Shown piece by piece: positions 3,304 to 51,470 of a stretch of 64,000 nucleotides of DNA. The notes beneath the pieces were generated by a model, which saw nothing but the letters and a program-made list of their open reading frames with translations, was not told the origin of the DNA and did not search any database. The position numbers were made by a program, and so were the translations under genes. This stretch comes from a virus, in UHGV virus genome UHGV-0277313; one strand, written 5' to 3'. Each line of letters opens with the position of its first letter. The stretch's first letter is position 1.

Positions 3304-3753
3304 ATGATTAAAGAGTGTGATAAGAAAGATGCAACGTTAGCTTTTATCATTCAGTCATTGGCTGAAGAAGGCGGTGTACAGTTGCACGGAAAACAAACAG
3401 ATGTGAACCGTATCAAAGGGAATATTGGTTCACAATTAACAATCAAGACTAAAGTTCCTATTACTAAAAGTCTGATTGATGCACTGAACGAAATGGAAGA
3501 TACAGCAACAATAAGCTTGACTTCTTTATCAGAAACGGTCAATATGTTTAAACAAAAACAAGAAGCTATGGAAAACAGTATGAAAAAACTGTTGGACATT
3601 GTTACACGATTGACAAATGCTGTTGATAACTTCGCAGCAGAGAATTGTGAAAGCCTTGACGATGTGAAAGAGTTTGAAGAAACATACAACGTAAAGGTCA
3701 GTAACACACTGAAAGAGGAATTCAAAGCGATTGAAGAAATACGCGAGAGGTGA
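3304..3753 (+). CDS. hypothetical protein (coiled-coil-like)
   Basis: ATG at 3304 after AAGGAG; acidic, helical composition. Confidence 0.5.
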   Translation: MIKECDKKDATLAFIIQSLAEEGGVQLHGKQTDVNRIKGNIGSQLTIKTKVPITKSLIDALNEMEDTATISLTSLSETVNMFKQKQEAMENSMKKLLDIVTRLTNAVDNFAAENCESLDDVKEFEETYNVKVSNTLKEEFKAIEEIRER

Positions 3754-3947
3754 ATATGAAATCTAAAGAAAAGAGTAATGAAACATTGACAATGGCAAGG
3801 TTGGAAGGAACGAGTATAGCTTTACATCGTTTCAGTATAGTCCTTGCCGTTGTCGTGTTTTTTGGGGCAATGACTTTACAAGGAACATATGATCCTGTCA
3901 GTAAAGCAATTCAACAGATACGGTTGCAAGAAATACGGGGAGAATAA
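3750..3947 (+). CDS. small hydrophobic protein (one predicted TM segment)
   Basis: 65-aa ORF overlapping the previous stop (ATGA); hydrophobic stretch VLAVVVFFGAMTL. Confidence 0.4.
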   Translation: MNMKSKEKSNETLTMARLEGTSIALHRFSIVLAVVVFFGAMTLQGTYDPVSKAIQQIRLQEIRGE

Positions 3948-3950
3948 ACA

Positions 3951-5279
3951 ATGTCAAACAACCAAAACATGCACAAGGCAAAAACGGAAAAGAATGACGA
4001 GTTTTACACAAGAAGGGAGGATATCGAAAAGGAACTTAAAAATTACAAAGATTACTTTAAAGGCAAAAGAGTGCTGTGTAATTGTGATGACCCGTTTGAA
4101 AGTTACTTCTTTAAATTCTTTGCTTCGCAATTCAAAGAGTTGAAATTAAAAAAGTTAATCACAACAAGCTATTATGACAGCGCTATCAAAAAGCAGAATA
4201 TCAATATGTTTGATGTTGGCGCTTACGCTGTTGTTATGGACAAAAAGGCAGGTTTTTTTAAACAACGAACATATGATTTGCAAGATGTTGAATGCTGGTT
4301 GGAAGAACAAAAGAACCTTTCGATACAAGGATCAGATTCTGCTTTAAAGTCGTTGACGACAGGGGACTTTGCAAGTAAAGAATGTGTGAAGTTCCTTGAT
4401 GAAGCTGATATTGTTGTGACAAATCCGCCGTTTTCAAAATTCCGTGAGTTTGTTGCCTTGCTGATGGAACATAAAAAACAGTTCCTAATTATCGGGAATA
4501 TGAATGCAATCACATATAAAGAAATTTTCCCGTTGATTAAGGAAAACAAATTGTGGTTGGGATATGAATCACCGAAAGAGTTTGTACAACCTGATGGAAC
4601 AACTAAAAAGTTTGGTAACATTTGTTGGTTCACAAACTTGCCGACCGAGAAACGTGAAGAGTATTTGGATTTGTTCGAAAATTACAGTCCTGACAAATAC
4701 CCGATGTACGACAACTATCTTGCAATCAATGTTGACCGTGTGTCTGACATTCCGTGCAATGAATGGTTTATCATGACGGTTGGTGAAGACCGTTATAACA
4801 AACTGAAAGCGACGTATGGTGACGATTGCGTGCTGATTGATGGTGATGATGTTAATAAACAGTATCGCATCAAGGTTCGTAACATTGTCATGGGTGTTCC
4901 TATTACGTTCCTTGACAAGTATTGCCCAGAACAGTTTGAGATTGTATCATTCCGTAAAGGCGATAACGGTGAAGACTTAATCTTTACGAGAGAGAGAGAG
5001 AAAGAGTTCAATCGTACTTTCGAGTCCTTATACGACATCGATAGCAGGAGTGATCAAGAACAAAGAAGGATTGATAAATGGGAAGCCTACATACGCGAGA
5101 ATAACAATAAGAAAGGTGGTTTAACAAGAGAACCTATTGATTGTTTTCATGTGTTGTTAACAAATGGAAATTGTGCTTCACATGGTAAAGAAGTAAGGAG
5201 GATTGAGAATGAAAGCCCTTGTATTAATGGAAAGTGGCTTTATACCAGAATAACAATTCGTAAGAAACCTAAACAATAA
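3951..5279 (+). CDS. N6-adenine DNA methyltransferase (amino-MTase, NPPF motif)
   Basis: Motif IV VVTNPPFS; candidate AdoMet-binding region VLCNCDDPFESYF; 442 aa; SD GGGGAG upstream. Confidence 0.65.
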   Translation: MSNNQNMHKAKTEKNDEFYTRREDIEKELKNYKDYFKGKRVLCNCDDPFESYFFKFFASQFKELKLKKLITTSYYDSAIKKQNINMFDVGAYAVVMDKKAGFFKQRTYDLQDVECWLEEQKNLSIQGSDSALKSLTTGDFASKECVKFLDEADIVVTNPPFSKFREFVALLMEHKKQFLIIGNMNAITYKEIFPLIKENKLWLGYESPKEFVQPDGTTKKFGNICWFTNLPTEKREEYLDLFENYSPDKYPMYDNYLAINVDRVSDIPCNEWFIMTVGEDRYNKLKATYGDDCVLIDGDDVNKQYRIKVRNIVMGVPITFLDKYCPEQFEIVSFRKGDNGEDLIFTREREKEFNRTFESLYDIDSRSDQEQRRIDKWEAYIRENNNKKGGLTREPIDCFHVLLTNGNCASHGKEVRRIENESPCINGKWLYTRITIRKKPKQ

Positions 5280-5291
5280 ACCTTAACAAAT

Positions 5292-5327
5292 AAAAGCGGT
5301 ATCATTCATTGGTATCGCTTTTATTTT
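5292..5327 (+). terminator. rho-independent terminator
   Basis: AAAAGCGGTATC-loop-GGTATCGCTTTTATTTT, stem followed by a T-run. Confidence 0.6.
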
Positions 5328-5374
5328 ATCAAACATTCAACAAATTGTCAACATCTAAATGAAAGGAAAAAGAG

Positions 5375-6550
5375 ATGACGATGAAAATTACGAAAACCGA
5401 AATTGCAGTTCGCGATTTGGTGAAGAATTACAAGGAGGATAAGAAGACGCATGAAGTCGTTGGTTACGGCAAGAAGCTGAACATTCGTCCGAAGTATCAG
5501 AGGGAATTTGTTTATGAAGGCAAAAAGGAAAAACAGAAGTTCGCTGTTATTGAAACAGTGATGAAAGGTTTCCCGCTGAATACCGTTTATTGGGCAAAGT
5601 CTGATGAGGATGGATTCGATTGGGAAGTTCTTGATGGGCAGCAGCGTACAATTTCGCTTTGTCGTTTCTGTACAAATCAGTTTTCGATTGAGTTGGAAAA
5701 AGGTTTCCCGATGACTTTTGCGAACCTTTCAGAAGAAGACCAGAACAAGATTTTGGATTACAAGCTTGACGTGTATCAGTGCGAAGGAACTGATGCAGAA
5801 AAGCTTGAATGGTTTAAAGTCATTAACATTGCAGGTGAAAAACTGTTTCCGCAGGAATTGAGAAATGCGGTTTATGCAGGTGAATGGTTGACCCGTGCAA
5901 AAGAATTGTTTTCCAAACGGACAGGTTGGGTGTATCGCAAATACAAAGACCTTTTGTCTGGAGAAGTCATTCGACAGGATTACCTTGAAACGGCATTGAG
6001 TTGGATTGGTGCGAAGGAAGGCAAGAGTATTGAGGAATACATGGCAGCGCACCAGTTTGACGAAGTGAACAAAGAAGGAACACCTGAAGGATTCCCGTTG
6101 TTCAAATATGTGAAAGATGTGTTTGATTGGGTTGACAAGACATTCCCGACAGCGCGGTCATATTTGAAAGAAGCGAAGAAAGTGGAATGGGGTTTGTTGT
6201 ACAATCGGTTTGGTACAGAGTCGCCTGACATTGAAGAAATCAATGATGAGGTCAACCGCCTGATGATGGACAGTGATGTTCAGAAAAAATCAGGGATTTG
6301 GGAATATGTGTTATCGAATGATGAGAGTGCATTGAACATTCGCACGTTTGATGACAATACCAAACGGGAAGTATATGAACGCCAAAATCACAAATGTCCG
6401 TATTGTGTACGGGAAGGAAATGACAAGGAGTACAACATCGAAGATATGGAAGCTGATCATATAACGCCGTGGTCACAGGGCGGGAAGACGACAGCTAATA
6501 ACTGTCAGATGTTGTGTAAGAAACACAATCGAAAGAAGAGTGACAAGTAA
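5375..6550 (+). CDS. DUF262 (ParB-like, GmrS-type) domain fused to an HNH nuclease; GmrSD/type IV restriction-like
   Basis: N-terminal DGQQRTISL (DUF262 DGQQR box); C-terminal HNH: HKCPYCV...ADHITPWSQGG...NNCQMLCKKHN. Confidence 0.75.
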   Translation: MTMKITKTEIAVRDLVKNYKEDKKTHEVVGYGKKLNIRPKYQREFVYEGKKEKQKFAVIETVMKGFPLNTVYWAKSDEDGFDWEVLDGQQRTISLCRFCTNQFSIELEKGFPMTFANLSEEDQNKILDYKLDVYQCEGTDAEKLEWFKVINIAGEKLFPQELRNAVYAGEWLTRAKELFSKRTGWVYRKYKDLLSGEVIRQDYLETALSWIGAKEGKSIEEYMAAHQFDEVNKEGTPEGFPLFKYVKDVFDWVDKTFPTARSYLKEAKKVEWGLLYNRFGTESPDIEEINDEVNRLMMDSDVQKKSGIWEYVLSNDESALNIRTFDDNTKREVYERQNHKCPYCVREGNDKEYNIEDMEADHITPWSQGGKTTANNCQMLCKKHNRKKSDK

Positions 6551-6624
6551 GAACATGTTGACAAATGGAACGGGTGGTAGTAATATCACCCGTTTTCAAT
6601 AAAAATGGTGGAAGGAGTAAAGAG

Positions 6625-6894
6625 ATGATTAAGGTTGGCGATATTTGCAAAGAGACAGTAAGTGATGATAAGGAAGTTATGTATGTCATCACGAAGATAG
6701 CGTCATCGGAAGTGACAGATGTTCACATGATAACATCGGACGGAGAGACGCAGTGTTTGTCGTTTGTTGATGAAGAAACGATGAATGACACGTTAGAAGC
6801 GAATCGAATCATCAGTAATGATGAAGACAAGGATTGGTTGACAATGGCGAGTGTAGTCTTTACTGACGGGTTAAGAACGATACATTCGATATAA
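6625..6894 (+). CDS. hypothetical protein
   Basis: ATG at 6625 after GGAAGGAG; ends ...GLRTIHSI (weak family motif). Confidence 0.5.
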   Translation: MIKVGDICKETVSDDKEVMYVITKIASSEVTDVHMITSDGETQCLSFVDEETMNDTLEANRIISNDEDKDWLTMASVVFTDGLRTIHSI

Positions 6895-6909
6895 TAAGGA
6901 GTGAAGACG

Positions 6910-7584
6910 ATGGGACAGCGTTTAATTGTGGAATTTAAGTATCAAGATAAAACAATTGCAGGATTGTATCAACATTGGTCAGCCTATACATTGGACGCTT
7001 TCAATACATTGGAATGTCTGATGGGTATAGGATATCGTGAAAAGCCCCAGAATGAGAAACAGGCTTTATTGCAAGCTTTGGAGATGATTAGCAACATTGA
7101 AGGTGTTGCGTGGGACAGTTATGACCCGACAGAGAAAAACAGTGATGACGAGGATAACGGTTGGGTATATATCCGAAAGAACTTTACAGGGAACGATGAC
7201 GAATCGAACGATATTCGTGAGATATCAAAATCGTTTTGTTTTGTGGGAGACCGTTCAACAGGGTTAGCAATCGTAGGCAAGCCAGCTGAAGATTGTTTGG
7301 GTTTAGGTGAGTATAGTATAGCGATTAGACTTGATGAACATGTAATCGAGTTTGACGTATATAACAGATACGACAACATGGTTGAGTATGTGGATTGTTG
7401 TGGCAATCCTTCAAAAAGACCGTCGCGAGTAATCTTGCCTAAAGGTGTGTACGTTGACTATTTCAAATTTGATGATATGCATTATATATCATCGTTTTTG
7501 GAAAAGTTGGGTGATGGAACAGCCTATTTTGCACCAAGTGTTGGCTATTGTGATGACGACACGATTTTTAGTGCAATAGGATAA
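6910..7584 (+). CDS. hypothetical protein
   Basis: ATG at 6910 after TAAGGAGTG; 224 aa. Confidence 0.55.
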   Translation: MGQRLIVEFKYQDKTIAGLYQHWSAYTLDAFNTLECLMGIGYREKPQNEKQALLQALEMISNIEGVAWDSYDPTEKNSDDEDNGWVYIRKNFTGNDDESNDIREISKSFCFVGDRSTGLAIVGKPAEDCLGLGEYSIAIRLDEHVIEFDVYNRYDNMVEYVDCCGNPSKRPSRVILPKGVYVDYFKFDDMHYISSFLEKLGDGTAYFAPSVGYCDDDTIFSAIG

Positions 7585-7606
7585 CTTTAACAAAGGAGTA
7601 AAAGAT

Positions 7607-9916
7607 ATGGAAGTTAAAACGTCGAATGTGGTTATGGAAAGCAGTGAACAGTTGCAAGAAAAACAATTTACGATTGCAACGAATGCGAAAGCGTTTGAAA
7701 TCCTGACGAGTACATTGTATAAGAATGTTCCGTCGTCAATCGTTCGGGAATTGATTTCGAATGGTTATGATGGACATGTTCGTGCGGGGAATGTCGATAA
7801 AGAAATTGAGGTACATGCCCCGTTTGTTTTTGAACCGACTTTTGAAGTTCGTGATTTTGGTTGTTCGATGGACGAAGAAACGATGATGAATGTATATACG
7901 ACATTCTTTTCATCGACCAAAAACGCGGATAACAATGAAGTCGGCGGTTTCGGGTTGGGTTGTAAATTGCCGTTTGCATATACGGATATGTTCACTATTA
8001 CAACGTATCTGAATGGCAAACAGCAAGATTATATCGCCAGCAAGAACAATGGTGTTCCGACATTGAGCAAGTTGGGAGATGCAACTGATACGTCTGAACC
8101 GAATGGCGTTAAGGTGTGTGTTCCTGTTCAAGAAGACGACATTGATGCCTTCTGTGGGGCTGTCAAGTATATGGTGAGATATTCCAAGTTTAAAATCAAA
8201 TCAAATTTGGAATGTGAAGCTGTGAAAGAATATGACAACTTCGGGTTGACAAACTTTCACAATTATGGTCAAATCACTGAAGAAGATAGATGTTTCAAAT
8301 GGAAACAGATTATCAGAGTTGGTGGTGTGCCGTATGCCTTTGACAAAAGCACGATGGAGCAAGACTTCATTGGTTGGCAAGATGTCAAGTACTTCAAGCT
8401 TGAAAAAACCTATGAGGGAAACAACGCATTGTTGCATGAAGCTTTGGCTGAATGTAATGATACGGAATTTCTTGAATGTAACATGTCGCAGCTGTTTAAC
8501 TTCAATGGCTGTTTGGATTTTGAAGTGGGTGAATTGGATATTACGGCATCGAGAGAATCCTTGCAGTATTCAAAGAAAACCCGTAAAGCGTTATTCAAAC
8601 GATTGGTTGAAGTGCAAACTGCTTTGTCGAAACGTCTGACAAAGATGTTAGATAAGTGGAACAATAACGTTGGAACGTTTCAGGAAGCGTTGGAGAAGTT
8701 AAAATACTTCAAACAAATTCAATGGGGAGCGTTTTCGTATGTTGTCAGAAACCGCCCGTTCAAATACAGATGCGGTCGTCATGAAAACAAAGTTAATTTG
8801 GATTCGTGTGACGTGTCGCTGGTTTGTTATGGGGATCAGGTGTTGAAAGAAAACGATTTGTTGAAAGGTTTGATTACGCCTAAACTTCATACGTTAAATG
8901 GAGATACAAAACGTATTCAACATTCAGCAAGATTGACGACGTTTAATCCTTGTAAGGGTTTGAAACAGATTGAGGTTTATTTGACAAATGCCCCTTTGAA
9001 ACATTCGGGCATTTCAATAAGCCAAGAAGAGATTAACTTGTTAGGTCGGTATTCGGCGTGCAAGGCAATCATTTCTGTTTCGAGTCGTTCAAACGTTAAA
9101 GAGCAAGGAGAGTGGCTGCAAAAACAGTTTGATGAAATTTGTCCAGACCTGTATAAAGTAATCACGGTTGACAAGAAAGATTGTTTCATTCCGAAAGTTG
9201 AAAAGGAAAGAAACGGTAAGACTGTCACAGTGGTTGCTGAAGACGAACGCCCGATGACGATTGCCGCCAAAGAGTTGATTGAACAGATGAAACCGATCAG
9301 CGATTGTTTTGGTCAAATCTATCTGTTCAAATCAAACAGTATTCAATATCAAGTACAACGGGTATTGGAGAGTTTGGTGATGGCAAAAGACTTAACGGGT
9401 ATTCCTGACTTAACCCCGATTCTTGAATGTGTCAAGATTCATGGAACGGCAAGAAAGATGGTTGAGAAATACACTGATATTCCTGTTGTCTTCTTTGAAG
9501 ATGAAATGGAAAACGACAGAAACGGTGATGTTATCTTCCGTCATGAATTGTTCCGTAAATTGAAACATGTCTTGCAAAGAATATGTTTCTTTATAAACAT
9601 GGATTCTGATACTGCAAAACTTGGAAGGGCTATCGTTAAATATGGCAAAGACCTTAATGTGAACATGGATACATTGAAGGTGATGGCACAATATAAGGAG
9701 ATGGCTTTCCCGAATTTGTATCTGTCGGAAGTCAATATGGATTCTGATCATGTTCAAGAGGTTTGGGTGAATGTCTGTCGGAATTGTCTTAACCGTTTGG
9801 ATAATGAACAAAGGTTCAAACTGTTGGCACAAATCTTCTTGAACTGTAGCTTCTATTTGCCGAATAAGCCGTTCAGGAAACTGATTGCAAGTTTCGGCTT
9901 GACAACGGACAGGTAA
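7607..9916 (+). CDS. GHKL (Bergerat-fold) ATPase domain protein, HSP90/MORC-like N-terminus, 769 aa
   Basis: N-box VRELISNGYDG (compare HSP90 ELISNASDA); G-box GGFGLGCKLPFAY; SD AAAGGAG upstream. Confidence 0.7.
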   Translation: MEVKTSNVVMESSEQLQEKQFTIATNAKAFEILTSTLYKNVPSSIVRELISNGYDGHVRAGNVDKEIEVHAPFVFEPTFEVRDFGCSMDEETMMNVYTTFFSSTKNADNNEVGGFGLGCKLPFAYTDMFTITTYLNGKQQDYIASKNNGVPTLSKLGDATDTSEPNGVKVCVPVQEDDIDAFCGAVKYMVRYSKFKIKSNLECEAVKEYDNFGLTNFHNYGQITEEDRCFKWKQIIRVGGVPYAFDKSTMEQDFIGWQDVKYFKLEKTYEGNNALLHEALAECNDTEFLECNMSQLFNFNGCLDFEVGELDITASRESLQYSKKTRKALFKRLVEVQTALSKRLTKMLDKWNNNVGTFQEALEKLKYFKQIQWGAFSYVVRNRPFKYRCGRHENKVNLDSCDVSLVCYGDQVLKENDLLKGLITPKLHTLNGDTKRIQHSARLTTFNPCKGLKQIEVYLTNAPLKHSGISISQEEINLLGRYSACKAIISVSSRSNVKEQGEWLQKQFDEICPDLYKVITVDKKDCFIPKVEKERNGKTVTVVAEDERPMTIAAKELIEQMKPISDCFGQIYLFKSNSIQYQVQRVLESLVMAKDLTGIPDLTPILECVKIHGTARKMVEKYTDIPVVFFEDEMENDRNGDVIFRHELFRKLKHVLQRICFFINMDSDTAKLGRAIVKYGKDLNVNMDTLKVMAQYKEMAFPNLYLSEVNMDSDHVQEVWVNVCRNCLNRLDNEQRFKLLAQIFLNCSFYLPNKPFRKLIASFGLTTDR

Positions 9917-9991: not shown

Positions 9992-10651
9992 ATGATTAAA
10001 TACTTTATTACTCCGAAAGTCTTGACTATGATTATTAACGGTAAGCAGATGTTCGTTCCGCAAAGTCATCTGAATTACGATACAATGTGCAATGCATTAC
10101 GTCAAGGTTGTAAAGATGAAAAGGTCATTATGGAATTGTTTGACCTTAAGAAATGTATGCTGGTGGAATTTCCGAACTATGTGGAAATTGATGAAAACGG
10201 TATGCTGGTATTGAAATACTGTCATGAAATCAACATGGAGAAATTCACAAAAGAAACGTTGTTGCAAAAACGCGATGGGGCTTGTGTTGAAAGTTTCTTC
10301 ATATTGCTGGCAAACATGAGCCAAAACAAAAGTGTGGATACATATCAGTTTTTACAATGGCTGAAAAAGAAGGGATATACCTATTCACACATGGGTACGA
10401 TTCTGTGTTATGCAAGAGTCTTTGATAACATGGGTGACGTTTTGCTTACTGACAAGAGAGATGCAAATGCAATTATCAGTATTCACCCGAAATACATTGA
10501 ATTCGTGACAGTGGACGGGGCGTTGAGAGAGAAAACGTTAGTCCAAAGCGAAGCAAGTTTAGAAATTGAATGGCACGGTAACAATGAGCCTGTTCCTTCG
10601 TTGGAAAACTTCAATGTCTTCAATGGGAACGATATGTTGGGTTGCATCTAA
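9992..10651 (+). CDS. hypothetical protein
   Basis: 219-aa ORF. Confidence 0.55.
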   Translation: MIKYFITPKVLTMIINGKQMFVPQSHLNYDTMCNALRQGCKDEKVIMELFDLKKCMLVEFPNYVEIDENGMLVLKYCHEINMEKFTKETLLQKRDGACVESFFILLANMSQNKSVDTYQFLQWLKKKGYTYSHMGTILCYARVFDNMGDVLLTDKRDANAIISIHPKYIEFVTVDGALREKTLVQSEASLEIEWHGNNEPVPSLENFNVFNGNDMLGCI

Positions 10652-38140: not shown

Positions 38141-39043
38141 TTACTGTTTATCGATTTGATGTTGTTTAAGATATTCACGAATTTCATCATCAAACGCAAA
38201 AGACAGTGCTGTTTTATTTTCATCAGAAACAGCATCAACATCAGCACCTTTTTCAACTAGCAATTTGACAGTATCAAAATCATTATGAAGTGTCGCATTC
38301 ATCAATGCCGTCATCCCTGTAGATGAACGAGCATTAACGTCAGCACCGTTTTCTAATAACATCTTAATGATATCTATAGAGTCTTGACGGCAAGCAAAGA
38401 TTAAAGGAGTGTCGCCTTCCCAATCTGTATTATCAATATCAGCACCAAGTTCTATAGCTTTTTGTGCAAGTTCAAGTTTATTGAGAATGCAGCTTCCAGT
38501 TAAAAGACGATTCGGGTCTTTAATTTCCGCATTGTGTTTGATTAATGTTTCAATAATATCATAAGCGTATTCGTATGCACCTTCTGATAACAGAACGTCA
38601 GCAGTTGTCATTCCGTTTATATTAGTAATGTTTGTATCAGCACCATGTTCTAATAACCAATTTATAGTTTCAATATCACCATAACCGAGACATGTGATAT
38701 ATAAAATTGTTTCGCCGCTTTTATTTTTAAAATTTAAATCAGCCCCGTGTTCATATAATAATTGAGCAACTTCAAGATTGTCAAGATAGATAGCACGAAA
38801 CAAAGGAGTTTCACCAAATTGGTCTGTCATGTTGACATCAACTTGAGGGTTATCTTCCAGAAGTTGTTTAATTGTTTCGAAGTCATTTGAGAACAGTTTG
38901 ATTTTCGTATCATCTGTTTCATCTTCTTCAATCATTTTTATAACCATTTCTTTTAGTTTGTATTTAACTGAACGTTTAAAAGATTCGAGTTTTAAATTTT
39001 CATCATTCATGTATTTAGTCCTTGTGTCAATAAAACGATGCAA
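38141..39043 (-). CDS. ankyrin-repeat protein (about 7 repeats)
   Basis: Repeated G-TPL--A------V--LL--GAD-N motifs, e.g. GETPLFRAIYLDNLEVAQLLYEHGADLNFKN and GDTPLIFACRQDSIDIIKMLLENGADVNAR. Confidence 0.85.
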   Translation of the reverse strand: MHRFIDTRTKYMNDENLKLESFKRSVKYKLKEMVIKMIEEDETDDTKIKLFSNDFETIKQLLEDNPQVDVNMTDQFGETPLFRAIYLDNLEVAQLLYEHGADLNFKNKSGETILYITCLGYGDIETINWLLEHGADTNITNINGMTTADVLLSEGAYEYAYDIIETLIKHNAEIKDPNRLLTGSCILNKLELAQKAIELGADIDNTDWEGDTPLIFACRQDSIDIIKMLLENGADVNARSSTGMTALMNATLHNDFDTVKLLVEKGADVDAVSDENKTALSFAFDDEIREYLKQHQIDKQ

Positions 39044-41092: not shown

Positions 41093-41120
41093 AAAAATCT
41101 AATTGATTAAGGACACGCTA

Positions 41121-43391
41121 ATGAAATATCTAATTTTGCTTCGGGGTCTTCCTGGTTCTGGTAAAAGTTATTGGATAAAAGAAAACAAATTAGAAGATTA
41201 TACTATTTCTTCTGATAATGTTCGTTTGTTGTTTGCAACACCGTCTATTCCTTTTCAGGCTTGTTATAAGGATAGAGGAATTTCACAAAAGAATGACAAA
41301 GAGGTTTGGGATTTAATACATTCTTTAGTTGAACGTCGTTTAATGGAAGGCATGACAACTATCGTTGATGCAACACATTTGACTGTTAAGTCTATTAATT
41401 ATTACAAAAGCTTTTGTGCAAGTAATAATGTACGTTGTATCGTATTGGATTTTAATGTTAGCCTGGAAAGTGCTATTAACAATGATTTGTTAAGAAAAGG
41501 CACTTGTCGTTATGTAGGTTGTCAGATCATTAAAATAATGAATGACAAAAAAGAAGATGTGCCTAAATGGGTTGATTATACAACTGATAAAGAGCATGTT
41601 GTCAAGCTGTTTAATGACTGTATAGACGCGGTTGATTACAATGAGAAGTATGATAGCGTTGTAATCTTCGGTGATTTGCATGGTTGTTATGAACCTTTAA
41701 AACAGTGGTTTGACAAACATCCTGTTAACGACAAAACGAAATATATCTTTTGTGGTGATTATGAAGATAGAGGTATTCAACATAAAGAGTTGTTTGATTT
41801 TCTTTTAGAACATCGCAAAGATTTTAATTTCAAATTCTTAAAAGGCAATCATTCTTGTCGTTTGTTACAGATAGCTGAACGTGATAAAGATTCTATTCGT
41901 TATCCGGAATACTATAATACGTTTGAACAAATGAAAGATTTTGATCCTATTGAACTGAAAAAGTTTGTTCGGGATCAAGATGATATGGTTTACTTTACAT
42001 TTCGTAATAAAAACTTTTGTGTATCACATGGTGGTATTAGTTGTCTTCCGACTTTAAAGTTGAATAGTAGTGAATACATAAAAGGTCACGGAACATATCA
42101 AATGTCAAATGATGTGGATAATGATTTTATGTTCAATTCTTCTATTGAAGGTGATAACATTTATCAGGTACATGGTCATCGCAACGTTACAAATAGTGAT
42201 ATTCAAGTATGTGATCGTTGTTTTAATTTGGAAGGAGGAGTTGAGTTCGGTGGTGAATTACGAATTCTTCAGATTGATAGTGAAGGTAAATGTATACTGG
42301 ATTCTATTAGAAATACTGTTTTTAAAGAATTGACGGAAGGTTCGAAGATTGTCAATGAGTTTAAGTATTCTTCATTGATTAGAAAGTCGCAAAACCCAAA
42401 CGGTATTAGTTCTTATAACTTTAATCGAGACGCTTTTTTTGATAAAAAGTGGAATAGCTTGACGTGTACCGCAAGGGGCTTGTTTGTATATGATGATACA
42501 GATAAAGTTGCAGCAAGGTCTTTTAACAAATTCTTTAATTTGAATGAAACTAGTACTTCGAAATTAGATTATATTGTGAAGAATTGGTGTGGCGTCACGA
42601 ATGTTTATAAAAAGGAAAACGGATATTTAGGTATCATTTCTGTTGATGTTCGTGATAACAGTTTCATTTTAGCATCGAAAAGTCGTACTGATAAAGAGTT
42701 CGCAACGAATATTAGTAGAATCTTTAATGAAAAATTGTCAGAAGAACAACAGAACAATTTGAAGAAATGGTTATTGAAGGATGTGGATAAACATCAAGGT
42801 AATGCATATTCTTTAGTTGTTGAAGTAATTGATCCAATTAACGATCCGCATTTTGTTCAATATGATAAAGATGATATTGTTGTTTTGGATGCATTCGTTA
42901 ATGACTTTAATGAAAAAACTGTTTCATATGATGAACTGATTTCATTACATGACTTAACAGGTTTGACAATAAAAGAAAAGATTTGTGAGACGTGTGATCT
43001 AAAGACAACAATTCATGAACTTTGTAATACCAAAGATCATATCGAAGGATTTGTTTTAGAAGGGCATGATTATAATGGCAAGACTGTTCGTGTGAAGATT
43101 AAAACAAAATGGTACTTGATGTGGAAGAAGTTCAGATCAACAGGTGATTTCGATGAACGATTCGACATTAAAGATTTTTTGACAGTTGAACAACAAAAAT
43201 ACGCCAAACAAATCTATAGCCGAACAAAACAATTGATCGATTTACGTAATGGAGATACAGTTAGTACTGATGGTTCAATAAATGTAAATGATGAAATTGA
43301 CAATTATGTTATGTTTATTTATAGAGATTTGATTGGTGATTCGCGGATTAATATACCGAAAATTATACAATCTGTTGAAAATGTGAAATAG
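41121..43391 (+). CDS. polynucleotide kinase / metallophosphatase / ligase-like RNA-repair enzyme (CthPnkp-like)
   Basis: P-loop LLRGLPGSGKSYW; calcineurin-type phosphatase motifs VVIFGDLHGCYEPL, FCGDYEDRG, KGNHS; ligase-like motif I YKKENGY in the C-terminal third. Confidence 0.7.
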   Translation: MKYLILLRGLPGSGKSYWIKENKLEDYTISSDNVRLLFATPSIPFQACYKDRGISQKNDKEVWDLIHSLVERRLMEGMTTIVDATHLTVKSINYYKSFCASNNVRCIVLDFNVSLESAINNDLLRKGTCRYVGCQIIKIMNDKKEDVPKWVDYTTDKEHVVKLFNDCIDAVDYNEKYDSVVIFGDLHGCYEPLKQWFDKHPVNDKTKYIFCGDYEDRGIQHKELFDFLLEHRKDFNFKFLKGNHSCRLLQIAERDKDSIRYPEYYNTFEQMKDFDPIELKKFVRDQDDMVYFTFRNKNFCVSHGGISCLPTLKLNSSEYIKGHGTYQMSNDVDNDFMFNSSIEGDNIYQVHGHRNVTNSDIQVCDRCFNLEGGVEFGGELRILQIDSEGKCILDSIRNTVFKELTEGSKIVNEFKYSSLIRKSQNPNGISSYNFNRDAFFDKKWNSLTCTARGLFVYDDTDKVAARSFNKFFNLNETSTSKLDYIVKNWCGVTNVYKKENGYLGIISVDVRDNSFILASKSRTDKEFATNISRIFNEKLSEEQQNNLKKWLLKDVDKHQGNAYSLVVEVIDPINDPHFVQYDKDDIVVLDAFVNDFNEKTVSYDELISLHDLTGLTIKEKICETCDLKTTIHELCNTKDHIEGFVLEGHDYNGKTVRVKIKTKWYLMWKKFRSTGDFDERFDIKDFLTVEQQKYAKQIYSRTKQLIDLRNGDTVSTDGSINVNDEIDNYVMFIYRDLIGDSRINIPKIIQSVENVK

Positions 43392-44242: not shown

Positions 44243-45538
44243 ATGGTTGATAAAGTTTGTAAATTGTCAAGCGGTGCAACGTTCCTGTATAATCAGCAAG
44301 AAGATGATTTGGCATCTTTTGCTATCTTGTTTGATGTAGGTTCGATTGATGAACAGGAAAATGAGAAAAAAGGTATTGCACATTGCCTAGAACATATGAT
44401 GTTCAAAGGAACTAAAACAAAAACATCAGCTGAATTTCTTGATTTGATGGATAAGTTGGGTGTTGAATCAAACGCGTTTACTTCGTTTGATGTAACTTGT
44501 TATCATGGAACGTTTCATAATGATGATACAAATGATGTCATTAATCTATTCGGTGAAATGATTACAGAACCCCGTTTTGATTATAAAGATTTGGAATTAG
44601 AAAAAGGTGTAATTCATCAAGAAATCATTATGGGTGAAAACGATCCGCAAAGCCGTGCACAACAGTATGGTTTGGAAAACATTTTTAAAGACACACCTTT
44701 TGCAAGGCCTGTTATTGGTTATTGGAAAGATGTGAATTCTATTACACCTGATGATTTGCGTTCATTTATGTACAATCATTATACACCGTCTAATTGCATT
44801 ATTGCCTATTCAGGAAAAACGTCTTTTAATGATGTTAGAAAAATTGTAGAAGACTTTACAAAAAAATTATCTAATAATACTGTTAGATTTGAACGTAAAG
44901 ATGTTAAAGTTAATTTAGGTGCTGAGACTGTCATTATCGAAGATAAAGAGACTAAACAGAATACTATTATGATTGGCGGTGCTTTATATAATAGTAATAC
45001 AGTTGATGGTGTAGCTTGCATTCTTGCTAAAGCTGTTCTTTCTGGCGGTCTGGCAAGTCGTTTGGTTAAACGAATCCGTGAAGAATTAGGCTTGTGTTAT
45101 TACATTGGAATTACAAACGTTCCTTCTATGAAAGATTTTGTATGTCCTTTAATCGTTTGTATTACTGATAAAGATACAAAAATGGTGGAAATGGAAATCA
45201 AAAAGGTTATTGCCAAAGCGATCAAAGAAGGTTTCGAAGATGAAGAAATCAAAACTGTAAAGAAACATGGCGAACTTGTTTGTATCAAATCAAATATTGA
45301 TCGTGATGATTATGCTGTAACAATGTGTACAAATTATCAAGGTACAGGTAAGTTGCCGTCACAGCTATTGAAAACTAAAGTGTCAAGGTTTAAGAAAGCA
45401 TCAAAGAAATCTGTTAATGAAGCAGTTGATAAGTTGTTTTGTGAAACAATTTCAGTTCATGTTGTCAAACCTATCAAAAAACAGAATGCTTTTAAACGGT
45501 TCTTCAAACTGGTGTTTGACAGATTGAATGAAGAATAA
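44243..45538 (+). CDS. M16-family (pitrilysin/insulinase-like) zinc peptidase
   Basis: Inverted zincin motif GIAHCLEHMMFKGT (HxxEH); 431 aa. Confidence 0.75.
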   Translation: MVDKVCKLSSGATFLYNQQEDDLASFAILFDVGSIDEQENEKKGIAHCLEHMMFKGTKTKTSAEFLDLMDKLGVESNAFTSFDVTCYHGTFHNDDTNDVINLFGEMITEPRFDYKDLELEKGVIHQEIIMGENDPQSRAQQYGLENIFKDTPFARPVIGYWKDVNSITPDDLRSFMYNHYTPSNCIIAYSGKTSFNDVRKIVEDFTKKLSNNTVRFERKDVKVNLGAETVIIEDKETKQNTIMIGGALYNSNTVDGVACILAKAVLSGGLASRLVKRIREELGLCYYIGITNVPSMKDFVCPLIVCITDKDTKMVEMEIKKVIAKAIKEGFEDEEIKTVKKHGELVCIKSNIDRDDYAVTMCTNYQGTGKLPSQLLKTKVSRFKKASKKSVNEAVDKLFCETISVHVVKPIKKQNAFKRFFKLVFDRLNEE

Positions 45539-48236: not shown

Positions 48237-48328
48237 GGAAATGTGGATGAGTGGTTTAAATCAGCGGTTTGCTAAACCGTCGGGCATAGAAATATGTCCC
48301 GCAAGTTCGAATCTTGCCGTTTCCGCCA
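48237..48328 (+). tRNA. tRNA-Ser (anticodon GCT), class II
   Basis: Acceptor GGAAATG/CGTTTCC; anticodon loop TTGCTAA; long variable arm CGGGCATAGAAATATGTCCCG; T-arm GCAAGTTCGAATCTTGC; discriminator G then CCA. Confidence 0.8.
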
Positions 48329-48355
48329 AAAGTTTCTGTAGAAGATACAGGTTAC

Positions 48356-48449
48356 GCCTTCGTCGTTCAATGGTTAGGACACTCGGCTTATACCCGAGCG
48401 AGCAGCTGATATCTGCGAAATCACAGTTCGAATCTGTGCGGAGGTACCA
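48356..48449 (+). tRNA. irregular tRNA-like gene (94 nt), identity unresolved
   Basis: Good T-arm CACAGTTCGAATCTGTG and an acceptor with G-U pairs ending ACCA; two candidate anticodon hairpins (CTCGG-CTTATAC-CCGAG and GCAG-CTGATAT-CTGC); does not fold as a canonical cloverleaf. Confidence 0.35.
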
Positions 48450-48481
48450 ATTTTAATTTGCATTTTGAAAGTTGGGTAGAT

Positions 48482-49312
48482 ATGCAATATTTGACAAAGC
48501 CTTTTGTAAAATGGGTCGGTGGTAAAAAACAACTTCTTGAGAAATTAGGATCTTGTATGCCCAAAGATTACAATCGTTATTACGAACCTTTTATTGGTGG
48601 TGGAGCTTTATTGTTTAATGTTCAACCTAAAGATGCTGTCATTAATGATACAAACAGTCAGTTAATAAATGTTTATAATCAATTAAAAACAAACATTGAA
48701 GATGTTATAAAAACGGTGAATACTTTAGATAGTAAAATGTGTAATGAAGATTATTATCTAGAAATTCGTGACCGTTATAATTCAAAAATCAAATCAAAAG
48801 AGTTAGATGCTGAATGTGCTTCTTTAATGATTTGGGTTAACAAACATTGTTTTAACGGGCTATATAGAGTCAATTCAAAAGGGTTGTTTAACGTCCCGTA
48901 TAACAATAAAGTAAATGGCGTTTCAATTGATGAATGTAATTTACGAAACATCAGCAATTATTTAAATTTAAATAAAGTTGATATTCGTGAAGGTGATTTC
49001 GAAGCCGCTTGTTCCGATGTGAAAAAAGGCGATTTGGTATATTTTGATTCGCCGTACGTTCCAGTAAGTAAAACAGCAAACTTTACAAATTATACAAAAG
49101 ATGGTTTTAGTTTAAATGATCACAAACGTTTGGCTAAATTGTTTTGCACTCTGGATAGTTTAGGTGCGTATATTATGTTAAGCAATAACGATGTTCCTTT
49201 GGTTCATGAGTTGTATAGTCAATTTAATGTGACTTCTGTTGATGCCCGTCGTGCTGTCAATAGAGATGCAACAAAAAGGAAAGGTAAGGAAGTAATCGTT
49301 ACCAATTTTTGA
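48482..49312 (+). CDS. dam: DNA adenine methyltransferase (Dam-like, alpha class)
   Basis: KWVGGKKQLL, FxGGG motif YYEPFIGGGALLF, catalytic DSPY; the ORF may extend to TTG 48458. Confidence 0.85.
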   Translation: MQYLTKPFVKWVGGKKQLLEKLGSCMPKDYNRYYEPFIGGGALLFNVQPKDAVINDTNSQLINVYNQLKTNIEDVIKTVNTLDSKMCNEDYYLEIRDRYNSKIKSKELDAECASLMIWVNKHCFNGLYRVNSKGLFNVPYNNKVNGVSIDECNLRNISNYLNLNKVDIREGDFEAACSDVKKGDLVYFDSPYVPVSKTANFTNYTKDGFSLNDHKRLAKLFCTLDSLGAYIMLSNNDVPLVHELYSQFNVTSVDARRAVNRDATKRKGKEVIVTNF

Positions 49313-49325
49313 TTAAACAGATAGT

Positions 49326-49412
49326 GGATGGGTCGCATAGCGGCAATTGCTGGGGACTGTAAATCCCCCGCCTGAAAAGGCTTCGTTGGTTCGAGTCCAA
49401 CCTCATCCACCA
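49326..49412 (+). tRNA. tRNA-Tyr (anticodon GTA), class II
   Basis: Acceptor GGATGGG/CTCATCC (one G-U); D-arm GCATAGCGGCAATTGC; anticodon stem GGGGA/TCCCC with loop CTGTAAA; long variable arm; T-arm GTTGGTTCGAGTCCAAC; ACCA. Confidence 0.75.
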
Positions 49413-49460
49413 AAAATTTTTAAAAAGATGAAAAAAAGTTCTTGACAATTAGCATTACAT

Positions 49461-49489
49461 TTGCTATAAATAATACATCAAGACGAGAT
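49461..49489 (+). promoter_or_regulatory. strong promoter copy B (AAAAAGTTCTTGACAattagcattacatttgcTATAAA)
   Basis: Duplicate of the 47904 promoter; TTGACA N17 TATAAA. Confidence 0.55.
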
Positions 49490-50335
49490 ATTAAACATTG
49501 TAAATAAGAAACAGCCAAATGAAAAGGCCTTTACGTGGCTTGGCTGATAAGTAGCTTTCTTCATTTAGTGAATTTAGTGAAACCAACTTTTTCATTGTTT
49601 AATATCTCATATAACTTGAACTGTATAAAAACAGTACGGCTGTATAGACATAAGATGATTCTGCCTATATAGTTTCCGTCATCAGTCTGATTACCTTTTC
49701 GTGGTTTGACGGATAAGTAGCGACCTTCAACTGTTTATTTTCAAGAGCGAAGCATTGATTATAAACTGTCGCGAAACTAAAGTTCTGACATGTAACAGTT
49801 GATGAAATTTCCGCATCGGTTGTTACAATATGATAATGGTCTTGACGAATTATAACCCCAATTTAACGTACGGTAATGCGGGAAAACATAGTTGTTATAA
49901 TGACTCAAGATCTTTCAAGCTATTTGTTTAGCCGTTTTCAGGAAAGTTTTGGGGTGAAAAACTTCCTTGTTATTATTTGTAAAATATGCCTTGATTTTTA
50001 ATTTTCTATAACTTCTAATAAAGTAGAATAGGAAATTTTAAAAGGTTTTAAAATTAAGTTGGAAGATTTGTGATTTTGTTATACAGAGTGACTGAATCAA
50101 TGGAAGAAAGAGGTCGTTTTGTTTAGATTGCAAACCCAATTTGATTTTAAATAAAAAGAAAATCTGAGTGAAATAAAGGTTTTCTCCTTAGAAATAAGGT
50201 TCTTTTTAGACTTAAGTCTTCTAAATTTATATAAAGTTTATATTTGTTTAGATAACTGAGTTATTTTATCGCAGTTTATTGTTTTAGACTCAAGTTCTAA
50301 ACATTTCAGATCGAATCTGAATGCTGCTTCTAATT

Positions 50336-50400
50336 CAATCCTTTATTCAAGGATTGTTTCCGGTGATTCGCGATAGTCAGTACCGGTACAAAATCTGACA
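50336..50400 (+). ncRNA. two-hairpin structured RNA element, copy 1
   Basis: CAATCCTT-TATT-CAAGGATTG, then TTTCCGGTGA-TTCGCGATAGTCAG-TACCGG...CTGACA; copy 2 at 54415 keeps both stems through compensatory changes. Confidence 0.4.
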
Positions 50401-50718
50401 TCTAGATAAATTGAAATATGTTTATCTGTTAGGTTCCTAAAACCTATCATCAAAATTTAGGCGTCAAGATTGTTTCTTGCAGGTTTCTTGTTCACCTGAC
50501 AAAATGAACAAGCAGTGCAAACGCTGTAGAATCGTTGGCGGGTTTGTCGTTGCCCATATACCGACCAGAAATGATACTTGCTGATATTCTGATAGAAGTT
50601 CCGCTAGACTGATGATCTTCATGTAAAGTGTGTCAAGCTTTACATTATGACATTCTTAATTGAATGCTGTCAAAGGTTTTGTGTATTGTACCTGCGTAGC
50701 AAAACAATACACTTTTAA

Positions 50719-51082: not shown

Positions 51083-51085
51083 TTT

Positions 51086-51179: not shown

Positions 51180-51185
51180 ATTTAT

Positions 51186-51443: not shown

Positions 51444-51470
51444 AATTTTTTCAATTTTCTTGAATTTTAA

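What the first reader, a model, noticed from the sequence alone, without database searches (positions are those of the whole stretch)
3951..9916. Candidate modification/restriction island: amino-MTase, DUF262-HNH fusion and HSP90/MORC-like GHKL ATPase
Three consecutive large genes are unusual for a phage early region. The first is an NPPF-motif N6-adenine methyltransferase (3951), followed by a terminator. The second fuses a DUF262 (DGQQR, GmrS-like) domain to a C-terminal HNH nuclease motif (5375). The third, after two small genes, is a 769-aa protein whose N-terminus has the Bergerat ATP-binding fold with HSP90/MORC-like motifs (ELISNGYDG N-box, GGFGLGCKL G-box). DUF262-nuclease fusions are type IV (modification-dependent) restriction enzymes. 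GHKL ATPases of the MORC type occur in several bacterial defence systems. A phage carrying both, next to its own methylase, could be running a super-infection-exclusion or anti-competitor system.
Basis: partly seen in the sequence, partly recalled or inferred. Interest (0 to 1): 0.7.

Follow-up and report, generated by a model that had tools for sequence, protein, structure and literature searches.

The report
Phage restriction-modification cassette beside rIIA
A gut jumbo phage carries a mobile two-gene restriction-modification cassette inserted just upstream of its ordinary rIIA gene; the unexpected part is a GA repeat in the methylase gene, after which all three reading frames still encode a complete enzyme.

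Summary
The three genes exist as described, but they are not one system. Genes 1 and 2 (3951-5279 and 5375-6550) are an EcoRI-family N6-adenine methyltransferase and a DUF262(ParB-like)+zinc-HNH nuclease. The nuclease matches PADLOC's 'REase_II' profile end to end. In all 153 related loci with enough upstream DNA (bacteria, plasmids, phages), the nuclease sits beside an EcoRI-family methylase. This is the pattern of a classical R-M pair, not a solitary type IV enzyme. Gene 3 (7607-9916) is rIIA (PHROG E 6e-88). Its modelled N-terminal ~320 aa match GHKL ATPase plus transducer modules; no nuclease was detected. A related phage keeps the two small genes, rIIA and the next gene but lacks the cassette, so the cassette is a roughly 2.6-2.8 kb insertion. 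A new point: the methylase gene has a (GA)7 tract (4988-5001). Downstream of it, all three frames end in the family's C-terminal motif. Related contigs carry (GA)6-9 and use all three frames. This suggests a repeat-driven switch among three methylase forms that is never off. Recognition site, methylation sensitivity and the biological role in the phage are not determined.

The parts
3756..3947 (+). Small ORF (about 63 aa from ATG 3756; listed as 3750-3947 from GTG) with one hydrophobic segment, immediately upstream of the methylase. It is a variable accessory gene and its membership of the cassette is uncertain.
   Evidence: Read from the sequence. No tblastn match in L092 or L172. A 63-aa gene occupies the same position in L175 but not in L176.
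3951..5279 (+). M gene: EcoRI-family N6-adenine DNA methyltransferase, 442 aa. Motif IV NPPF at nt 4422-4433.
   Evidence: PF13651 E 3e-102. PADLOC MTase_II E 9e-92. Matches an HMM built from 142 cassette methylases through to its end.
4988..5001 (+). (GA)7 dinucleotide repeat inside the methylase gene. In context it reads ACGAGAGAGAGAGAGAAAGAG, which is (GA)9G with one G>A interruption. It sets the frame of the C-terminal tail.
   Evidence: Related contigs carry (GA)6G, (GA)7G, (GA)8G and (GA)9G, and the frame used follows the tract length.
4987..5124 (+). Alternative tail B, in the +1 frame relative to the annotated ORF: ...SSIVLSSPYTTSIAGVIKNKEGLINGKPTYARITIRKVV*. It would give a 389-aa methylase after loss of two GA units.
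   Evidence: Natural relatives in this frame: P0237, P0238, P0244, P0252, L172 and L176.
4988..5044 (+). Alternative tail C, in the +2 frame: ...ERVQSYFRVLIRHR*. It would give a 363-aa methylase after loss of one GA unit.
   Evidence: Natural relatives in this frame: P0235, P0236, P0239, P0245, L175 and L177.
5288..5326 (+). Terminator-like hairpin with a U run between the M and R genes.
   Evidence: dG -19.6 kcal/mol, z -8.6. The same sequence is present in L010. Its translation footprint (KSGIIHWYRFYF) recurs in L175 and L177.
5375..6550 (+). R gene: 391-aa nuclease. It has an N-terminal DUF262/ParB-like domain (QREF 42-45, DGQQR 87-91), a helical middle region, and a C-terminal zinc-HNH (C341, C344, D361-H362, N376, C381, N385).
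6565..6894 (+). 109-aa phage backbone gene of unknown function. Not part of the cassette.
   Evidence: No family hit. Conserved in L010, L092 and L172. An 86-aa gene occupies this position in the cassette-less L173.
6901..7584 (+). 227-aa phage backbone gene of unknown function. Always directly upstream of rIIA.
   Evidence: Homologue present in the cassette-less L173 (33% identity, E 5e-32).
7607..9916 (+). rIIA homologue, 769 aa. N-terminal GHKL ATPase plus transducer-like domain (about aa 25-330), followed by a lineage-specific alpha/beta C-terminal region.
9992..10651 (+). 219-aa gene in the rIIB position. The rIIB assignment is weakly supported.
   Evidence: Matches the C-terminal part of phrog_609 'RIIB', E 6e-7. 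Always follows rIIA in relatives. No tblastn match in GenBank phages.

Best explanation
The region holds two unrelated things.

(1) A restriction-modification cassette, coding from 3951 to 6550. Its footprint between backbone genes is about 3754-6564, roughly 2.6-2.8 kb. The first gene is an EcoRI-family N6-adenine methyltransferase. The second is its cognate nuclease, in which a ParB/DUF262-type nucleotide-binding domain is fused to a zinc-HNH catalytic domain.

Inferred mechanism: the methylase marks a specific adenine-containing site on phage DNA, both packaged and newly replicated. The nuclease cuts DNA that lacks the mark, such as the host chromosome, co-infecting phages and plasmids. The hairpin between the genes probably keeps nuclease expression below methylase expression.

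The cassette is a mobile module. It was inserted into the early region of one sublineage of a ~300-kb gut jumbo phage clade. It may also spread between co-infecting relatives.

(2) The phage backbone: a 109-aa gene, a 227-aa gene, rIIA (a GHKL+transducer ATPase) and an rIIB-position gene. In T4, rIIA/rIIB protect against Rex-type abortive infection. This block is independent of the cassette.

In addition, the methylase gene carries a slippage-prone (GA)n tract. Downstream of it, all three frames encode a complete C-terminus. Repeat gain or loss would therefore switch the enzyme among three isoforms (363, 389 and 442 aa) instead of turning it off.

Shown: the domains, catalytic residues, gene linkage, insertion/absence polymorphism, repeat-length/frame correspondence and retention of the unused frames. 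Inferred: methylation-sensitive cleavage, the recognition site, the role of nucleotide binding, the biological purpose in the phage, and any functional difference between isoforms.
For: Domain identity.

The nuclease keeps every invariant residue of a 24-sequence family alignment.

Linkage: tblastn on 160 loci fetched through the nuclease (80 GTDB genomes, 80 IMG/VR contigs). An EcoRI-family methylase is on the same strand in all 153 loci with more than 250 bp of upstream DNA. It lies upstream in 152 of them. The seven loci without one are all truncated. The same pairing is seen in GenBank phages, in plasmids of cultured bacteria and in Lachnospiraceae, Rodentibacter and Erythrobacter contigs.

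The cassette is separable from rIIA. L173 has the order DUF8033 gene, small genes, 224-aa gene, rIIA, 220-aa gene, with no M or R gene. Within the fetched flanks (up to 10 kb viral, 4 kb genomic), rIIA lies near the cassette only in L010 and L092, which belong to this lineage.

The R gene is the least diverged gene in the region. For window versus L172, its dS is 0.39, against 1.0-2.0 for the flanking genes.

rIIA. The literature describes T4 rIIA as an N-terminal GHKL ATPase with a variable C-terminal domain (PMC7824862).

SSR.
Against: No experiment or named REBASE enzyme could be tied to this nuclease family. 'Type II' rests on the name of a PADLOC profile and on gene linkage.

The nearest solved structures of the N-terminal domain are type IV or phosphorothioate-sensing enzymes (BrxU, SspE). 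Modification-dependent behaviour is therefore not excluded by structure.

The methylase C-terminal region varies widely among phages whose nucleases are 87-97% identical. That is odd if this region sets a specificity the nuclease must share.

Some relatives have a methylase that looks truncated (in-frame TAA in L010) or split (L172) next to an intact nuclease. This sits uneasily with strict methylase dependence.

The lower dS of R could reflect constraint rather than recent transfer.
Confidence: 0.72

Rival explanations
1. This is a three-gene anti-competitor island. A type IV (modification-dependent) DUF262-HNH nuclease works with a MORC-like GHKL ATPase, and the methylase protects the phage itself.
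Against: The GHKL protein is rIIA and has no PADLOC hit. It resembles Hsp90, topo II and MutL at least as well as MORC. rIIA persists without the cassette (L173). The cassette occurs without rIIA in all loci outside this phage lineage. The obligate methylase partner and the PF01844 HNH in place of DUF1524 do not fit GmrSD-type enzymes.
Confidence: 0.05
2. The cassette is mainly a selfish element in the phage population. In mixed infections the nuclease cuts unmethylated genomes of cassette-less relatives. Repair from the cassette-bearing genome then copies the cassette into the same site. This would be homing-like spread or marker exclusion, with little benefit to the phage.
For: The insertion site is the same in phages whose backbone proteins are only 45-65% identical (L092, L172), while the nuclease is 87-91% identical. 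The nuclease dS is 2-4 times lower than that of the flanks. A presence/absence polymorphism exists (L173). The methylase gene in relatives has also acquired an intein with a LAGLIDADG domain. In bacteria the cassette sits on mobilizable elements and plasmids.
Against: dS of the R gene is not near zero (0.39-0.78), so transfers are not very recent. The M gene does not share the low dS (1.1-1.25). This model is compatible with, rather than exclusive of, host-DNA degradation or competitor exclusion.
Confidence: 0.25
3. The methylase is a protective, anti-restriction methylase against host enzymes. The DUF262-HNH protein is an independent nuclease (a homing endonuclease or a type IV enzyme against modified competitors). 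They are neighbours only by chance of insertion.
For: Solitary phage methylases are common. A second, Dam-type methylase is also present in the window. EcoRI-family methylases occur without the nuclease in mycobacteriophages and Campylobacter phages.
Against: Linkage is 153 of 153 in the direction nuclease to methylase, across many phyla, with conserved order and strand. That is not what chance neighbourhood gives.
Confidence: 0.07
4. The GA-repeat differences among contigs are assembly or sequencing artefacts, or decay of a dispensable C-terminal extension. They are not a functional switch.
For: Every contig is a metagenome assembly and no read-level data were available. One relative has lost tail C (L178). 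Another has an in-frame stop (L010).
Against: Tract lengths of 18, 20, 22 and 24 nt come from independent samples, and each matches the frame of a full-length gene call. The unused ~80-90-codon tail A stays open in all four contigs that use another frame; the chance for 95 random codons is 4.6e-4. All three tails end in the family motif and reach the end of the family HMM. The overlap segment is 93-97% identical at the DNA level, against 77% gene-wide.
Confidence: 0.2

Closest known systems
Type II restriction-modification systems with an EcoRI-family (PF13651) N6-adenine methyltransferase
   Same: Two separate genes in the order methylase then nuclease, on one strand. The methylase has the NPPF motif. 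The nuclease matches PADLOC 'REase_II' PDLC03418 over its full length. The pair is strictly co-inherited and sits on mobile elements.
   Different: The nuclease is not a PD-(D/E)XK enzyme like EcoRI or MunI. It is a DUF262/ParB-like domain fused to a zinc-HNH domain. The recognition site and cleavage position are unknown. No characterised enzyme name was found in the searched literature.
GmrSD / BrxU / SspE family (DUF262 + DUF1524; type IV or phosphorothioate-sensing nucleases)
   Different: The C-terminal domain is PF01844 HNH with a CxxC...C zinc site, not DUF1524. The protein is about 200 aa shorter. It always has a methylase partner, whereas GmrSD-type enzymes are solitary and attack modified DNA.
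T4 rIIA/rIIB
   Same: Gene 3 matches rIIA PHROGs strongly. It has the N-terminal GHKL ATPase described for rIIA (PMC7824862). It lies in the early region and is followed by a smaller partner gene.
   Different: Only about 31% identical to the nearest GenBank phage rIIA, and only over the N-terminal half. The C-terminal ~400 aa are lineage-specific. The rIIB assignment of the next gene is weak.
Phase-variable DNA methyltransferases (phasevarions) of Haemophilus, Neisseria, Helicobacter and Campylobacter
   Same: A simple sequence repeat inside a methylase ORF, whose unit number differs among close relatives and shifts the reading frame (PMC7383803 for the general phenomenon).
   Different: Here the gene is in a lytic-type jumbo phage and belongs to a type II-like pair. 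A frameshift does not turn the gene off: all three frames finish with a family-typical C-terminus. It would be a three-state isoform switch rather than an ON/OFF switch.
Virus-encoded R-M systems (chlorella virus CviAII and others; phage P1 EcoP1I). Cited from general knowledge, not tested here.
   Same: A virus carries both a methylase and a nuclease. The proposed uses are host DNA degradation and exclusion of competitors.
   Different: The enzyme families are different. Nothing is known here about timing of expression or targets.
MORC / paraMORC GHKL ATPases of bacterial defence systems
   Different: No sequence-profile match (PADLOC gave nothing). Hsp90, topo II and MutL score as high or higher. 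The gene context and the PHROG match identify it as rIIA.

Membership tests
Type II R-M system | Separate methyltransferase and endonuclease genes that are adjacent and co-inherited | tested here: met
   153 of 153 informative loci carry an EcoRI-family methylase on the same strand next to the nuclease. The same holds on plasmids and in GenBank phages.
Type II R-M system | Methyltransferase with SAM-binding and catalytic (D/N)PP(Y/F) motifs | tested here: met
   NPPF at aa 158-161. PF13651 E 3e-102. The protein is complete to the end of the family HMM.
Type II R-M system | Endonuclease matches a profile built from type II restriction enzymes | tested here: met
   PADLOC PDLC03418 'REase_II', E 1.5e-111, profile positions 1-372 of 372. 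The enzyme(s) behind that profile could not be traced.
Type II R-M system | Cleavage at or near a defined sequence, blocked by the cognate methylation | not testable with these tools
   Needs biochemistry or methylome data. Palindrome statistics of the window gave no clue: AATT-type sites are not notably depleted.
GmrSD-type type IV restriction enzyme | N-terminal DUF262 domain with the DGQQR motif | tested here: met
GmrSD-type type IV restriction enzyme | C-terminal DUF1524 His-Me nuclease domain | tested here: not met
   The C-terminal domain is PF01844/PF14279 HNH with zinc cysteines. No DUF1524 hit.
GmrSD-type type IV restriction enzyme | Acts alone on modified DNA, with no cognate methylase | tested here: not met
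   Obligate methylase neighbour. Modification dependence itself is not testable here.
rIIA | Sequence membership in rIIA protein families | tested here: met
   phrog_612 E 6e-88 and five further rIIA PHROGs. 2,922 phage records matched, with listed hits annotated rIIA.
rIIA | N-terminal GHKL ATPase with intact ATP-binding motifs | tested here: met
rIIA | Paired with a downstream rIIB gene | tested here: inconclusive
   A conserved 219-220-aa gene always follows rIIA. It matches only the C-terminal part of phrog_609 at E 6e-7 and nothing in GenBank phages.
MORC-type defence GHKL ATPase | Profile match to MORC/paraMORC or to a known defence-system component | tested here: not met
   No PADLOC family for this protein. 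Only a weak sacsin/HATPase_c domain hit.
SSR phase-variable methyltransferase | Simple sequence repeat within the ORF whose copy number varies among close relatives and changes the frame | tested here: met
   (GA)6G, 7G, 8G and 9G, plus interrupted variants, in eight contigs. Frame follows tract length modulo 3.
SSR phase-variable methyltransferase | High-frequency reversible switching within one population, with ON/OFF expression | not testable with these tools
   No read-level data. The predicted outcome here is a switch between isoforms rather than OFF, because all frames reach the family C-terminus.

The most novel reading that the evidence does not exclude
The (GA)n tract is a true hypermutable switch that cycles a phage-encoded R-M methylase among three functional isoforms whose C-terminal modules differ (about 25, 52 or 105 residues between the QFEIV motif and the final strand). 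The isoforms would differ in target specificity, activity or control of the partner nuclease. A single phage lineage would then keep generating sub-populations with different epigenetic identities. This would serve kin discrimination among co-infecting jumbo phages, or escape from host sensors of the methylase. The triple-overlapping coding would be maintained by selection as a 'never-off' design.
Probability: 0.3. Interest if true: 0.8.

Novelty: new variant of a known kind. Interest (0 to 1): 0.5.

Why it matters
The finding as written mostly dissolves into known parts: an R-M cassette and rIIA. Three points remain useful.

1. A very widespread nuclease family is always paired with an EcoRI-family methylase. 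Public genomes annotate it only as a 'DUF262 domain-containing protein'. It joins a ParB-like nucleotide-binding domain, otherwise known from type IV and phosphorothioate-sensing enzymes, to what looks like classical methylation-protected restriction. Its biochemistry would connect the two classes.

2. Complete R-M pairs in large lytic-type phages bear on how phages compete with each other and dispose of host DNA.

3. The methylase gene shows a repeat-controlled, three-frame, never-off architecture. I did not find this described in the literature I searched. If functional, it would be a new form of phase variation, and it would be located in a virus.

Tried and rejected
1. Nucleotide search of the region against GenBank phages: no match.

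2. PDB sequence searches for all three proteins: no hits.

3. Literature searches for a characterised DUF262-HNH type II enzyme or an EcoRI_methylase+HNH pairing: nothing specific. I could not name the REBASE enzyme behind PADLOC PDLC03418.

4. Guessing the recognition site from palindrome avoidance in the window. Only GATC, CATG and GGCC are depleted. AATT-type sites are near expectation. This is not informative for a self-methylating phage.

5. Reading the GHKL protein as a MORC-like defence component: rejected.

6. Treating the 109-aa and 227-aa genes as cassette components: rejected, because the 227-aa gene has a homologue, and an 86-aa gene occupies the 109-aa position, beside rIIA in the cassette-less L173.

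7. Considering an intron as the cause of split methylase calls in relatives. In L172 the break is a 1-nt frameshift with no intervening sequence. Rfam found no intron in the window.

8. Looking for more repeat variants by DNA pattern in IMG/VR and JGI metagenomes: no matches.

9. The consensus terminator scan missed the M-R hairpin. Folding confirmed it.

Full report
**What is in the region**

The window is a long run of co-directional genes from a large phage. Most genes are small and unknown. Also present are a 13-tRNA array, a polynucleotide kinase-phosphatase-RNA ligase fusion and rIIA. Close relatives lie on gut-metagenome contigs of about 300-313 kb, such as IMGVR_UViG_3300013426_000013 at 313,762 bp (contig lengths). 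The source is therefore a jumbo phage of the gut.

**Gene 1: the methylase (3951-5279)**

This is an EcoRI-family N6-adenine methyltransferase. It matches PF13651 at E 3e-102 and PADLOC MTase_II at E 9e-92. The NPPF motif is at aa 158-161.

A strong hairpin with a U run lies at 5288-5326, between this gene and the next (dG -19.6 kcal/mol, z -8.6). No + strand promoter-like site lies between the hairpin and the next start codon. Expression of gene 2 may therefore depend on read-through. That would keep the nuclease below the methylase. This last step is inference.

**Gene 2: the nuclease (5375-6550)**

- The N-terminal domain is DUF262/GmrSD_N (E 3e-17) and the C-terminal domain is PF01844 HNH (E 4e-11).
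- The protein matches PADLOC 'REase_II' PDLC03418 from end to end (E 1.5e-111).
- In a 24-sequence alignment of relatives from many phyla (51-87% identical to the window protein), the window protein keeps every invariant residue. These include QREF 42-45, DGQQR 87-91, the zinc cysteines C341, C344 and C381, the catalytic D361-H362, and N376 and N385.

**Are genes 1 and 2 a pair?**

I fetched 80 loci from GTDB species genomes and 80 from IMG/VR through the nuclease. I then searched them for the methylase.

- Every locus with more than 250 bp of upstream DNA (153 loci) has an EcoRI-family methylase on the same strand.
- In 152 of these the methylase is upstream, usually within 300 bp. Sometimes one gene intervenes. 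In one locus (L155) it is downstream.
- The seven loci without a methylase are all cut off within 245 bp of the nuclease start.
- The carriers span Bacteroidota, Firmicutes, Proteobacteria, Cyanobacteria, Actinobacteria, candidate phyla radiation (CPR) bacteria and one archaeal metagenome-assembled genome.
- The same pair is seen in three GenBank phage entries, on 50 plasmids of cultured bacteria, and in a Lachnospiraceae mobilizable element, Rodentibacter and Erythrobacter.

This obligate linkage, with fixed order, is what a methylation-protected nuclease predicts. A solitary modification-dependent enzyme does not predict it.

Together with the HNH-for-DUF1524 difference, this means the protein fails two defining features of the GmrSD family, although it shares its N-terminal domain. 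I therefore read genes 1 and 2 as a classical (type II-like) R-M cassette. Two caveats apply. No biochemical characterisation was found. 'Type II' rests on a profile name plus gene context.

**Gene 3: rIIA (7607-9916)**

- It matches phrog_612 'RIIA lysis inhibitor' at E 6e-88, and five more rIIA PHROGs.
- tblastn hits 2,922 phage records. The listed hits are annotated rIIA, with about 31% identity over the N-terminal half.
- Among 66 homologues, the invariant residues are the GHKL motifs (E48 and N52; D83-x-G85; G113, G116, G118) plus Y243 and R316 in the next domain.

The part after the Bergerat fold contains a transducer-like second domain, up to about aa 330. No nuclease domain was detected in the remaining ~440 residues by Pfam, PHROGs, NCBIfam or PADLOC. 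The resemblance to MORC is fold-level only and is no better than to Hsp90 or topo II.

The literature already describes T4 rIIA as a GHKL ATPase with a variable C-terminal domain, at the centre of a poorly understood counter-defence system (PMC7824862).

The following 219-aa gene is conserved in position. It is only weakly rIIB-like.

**Is it one island?**

No. Comparison with related phage contigs shows this.

- L092 and L172 have backbone proteins 35-75% identical to the window. They share the order: small genes, M, R, an ~88-aa gene, a ~230-aa gene, rIIA, a 220-aa gene.
- L173 has an rIIA 43% identical to the window's. It keeps the DUF8033 gene, small genes, the 224-aa gene, rIIA and the 220-aa gene, but has no M or R.

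The cassette is therefore a presence/absence insertion immediately upstream of the block [109 aa, 227 aa, rIIA]. The two small genes belong to the backbone. Conversely, none of the other 158 cassette loci has rIIA in its flanks.

Between the window and L172, the R gene is 91% identical in protein with dS 0.39. Flanking genes are 37-75% identical with dS 1.0-2.0. The M gene is intermediate (dS about 1.2). This is consistent with exchange of the cassette among related phages after they diverged. Strong constraint on R is an alternative.

**An unexpected feature of the methylase gene**

The window's methylase is about 100 aa longer than the family median (442 against 347.5 aa). The extra length starts at a (GA)7 tract at 4988-5001. 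Downstream of the tract, all three reading frames end with the family's C-terminal strand motif, Y-x-R-[IV]-x-[IV]-R.

| Tail | Frame | C-terminal sequence | Product length |
|---|---|---|---|
| A | the window's own frame | ...INGKWLYTRITIRKKPKQ | 442 aa |
| B | +1 | ...LINGKPTYARITIRKVV | 389 aa (after loss of two GA units) |
| C | +2 | ...VQSYFRVLIRHR | 363 aa (after loss of one GA unit) |

When the tract is edited by one or two GA units, each resulting protein matches an HMM of 142 cassette methylases right to its end (positions 331-333 of 335).

Natural relatives use all three frames. Among the 120 best methylase hits, 11 are in frame A, 4 in B and 4 in C. At the DNA level, tract length predicts the frame exactly.

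| Contig | Tract | Frame used |
|---|---|---|
| L179 | (GA)6G | A |
| L176 | (GA)7G | B |
| L177 | (GA)8G | C |
| L178 | (GA)9G | A |
| L172 | (GA)7A | B |
| L175 | (GA)6ACGAG | C |

Further observations:

- In seven of eight contigs all three tails are intact, whichever one is in use.
- The ~80-90-codon tail A is open in all four contigs that use B or C. The chance for 95 random codons of this composition is 4.6e-4, though the contigs are not independent.
- The overlapping segment is 93-97% identical at the DNA level among contigs. The gene-wide figure for window versus L172 is 77%.
- The window and L177 methylases are 97% identical over the aligned part (43% of the query), yet they use different frames.

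The simplest reading is a slippage-prone repeat that switches the enzyme among three complete isoforms rather than switching it off. Whether switching is frequent within a population, and what the isoforms do differently, cannot be determined with these tools.

Two facts do not fit a neat picture. L010 has a poly-A version of the tract with an in-frame TAA. L178 has lost tail C.

**Other plasticity of the methylase gene in relatives**

- 62 of the 120 hits are N-terminal ORFs that end before the GVPITF motif. In L172 this is a 1-nt frameshift, and a second ORF starts at ATGATG.
- Four hits carry a LAGLIDADG-containing insertion. In L177 it is a 342-aa intein-like element placed directly after NPPFS.
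- Other sublineages have unrelated sequence modules between the QFEI[VI]G motif and the terminal strand.
- The nuclease, by contrast, is highly conserved.

**How it most likely works**

Shown: a complete, intact M+R pair of a widely mobile family, inserted in the phage early region. rIIA is independent of it.

Inferred:
- Phage DNA is methylated at a specific site by M.
- R, possibly gated by nucleotide binding to its ParB-like domain as in BrxU and SspE, cuts unmethylated DNA. Targets would be the host chromosome (giving shut-off and a nucleotide supply), competing phages and plasmids.
- The cassette may also behave selfishly in mixed infections.
- rIIA and the rIIB-position gene act separately, as in T4, against abortive-infection systems.

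**Verdict**

The known parts are ordinary. The three-frame GA-repeat methylase is the element worth following.

Noticed in passing
window 4988-5279 (inside the methylase gene): A (GA)7 tract is followed by a triple/dual-coding segment in which all three frames end in the family's C-terminal motif. Relatives carry (GA)6-9 and use all three frames.
   Followed up: yes
L177:57-2183 (P0239); also P0264, P0303, P0314: A relative's methylase (97% identical over the aligned 43% of the query) carries a 342-aa intein-like insertion with a LAGLIDADG_3 domain. It sits exactly after the catalytic NPPFS motif, starting with C, ending ...GN, followed by C. The window's gene lacks it.
   Followed up: partly
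L172:6329-7541 and 62 of 120 methylase hits: Many relatives have the methylase split at about aa 296-322, just before GVPITF. In L172 the cause is a 1-nt frameshift in a GAT/GAA-rich stretch, and the second ORF starts at ATGATG. It is unclear whether this is a functional split enzyme or decay.
   Followed up: partly
L010:1-300: The relative with a 97% identical nuclease has TATTA(11) in place of the GA tract. This creates an in-frame TAA in the methylase while the nuclease is intact. An apparently truncated methylase next to a live nuclease is unexplained.
   Followed up: partly
window 5375-6550 versus L172 and L092: The nuclease gene has 2-4 times lower synonymous divergence than all flanking backbone genes (dS 0.39 against 1.0-2.0 for L172). 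The methylase does not share this, which suggests a mosaic history for the cassette.
   Followed up: partly
window 3756-3947: A small ORF (~63 aa) with one hydrophobic segment lies directly upstream of the methylase. It is present in L175 but absent in L092, L172 and L176. In a Lachnospiraceae element (L001-L004) a SieB-like 169-aa gene sits between M and R.
   Followed up: no
window 5351-5323 (minus strand): The best sigma-70-like match of the region (TTGACA, 17-nt spacer, TAAAAT, with TG; 11 of 12 positions) lies on the minus strand in the M-R intergenic spacer, pointing back into the hairpin. It may be chance.
   Followed up: no
window 48458-49312 and whole window: A second methylase, Dam-type (PF02086, E 5e-62), sits inside the tRNA array. 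GATC is strongly under-represented in the window (observed/expected 0.45, z -9). CATG (0.69) and GGCC (0.32) are also depleted.
   Followed up: partly
window 48237-55178: ARAGORN calls an array of 13 tRNA genes. Only 8 reach the Rfam gathering score. Several calls are long (87-94 nt), and one is an odd tRNA-Phe(aaa) of 68 nt.
   Followed up: no
window 41103-43391: A 762-aa fusion of kinase (AAA_33), metallophosphatase and T4-type RNA ligase 1 domains. It is a tRNA-repair-type enzyme lying upstream of the tRNA array.
   Followed up: no
window 58400-59482: A TnpB-like gene (OrfB_IS605 plus the Cas12f1-like TNB domain). It is an IS200/IS605-type element within the phage genome.
   Followed up: no
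window 38141-39043 (minus strand): A 300-aa ankyrin-repeat protein is encoded on the minus strand in an otherwise + strand genome. GC skew collapses locally (0.015 at 38-40 kb).
   Followed up: no
window 44243-45538; 61438-62202; 60543-61400: An M16 (insulinase-type) peptidase, an RNase T/DEDD exonuclease and a weak QueC-like protein.
   Followed up: no
window 24000-48000 and 58000-64000: G+C drops from about 0.37-0.40 (1-24 kb) to about 0.28-0.31, and rises again only around the tRNA array (48-58 kb).
   Followed up: no
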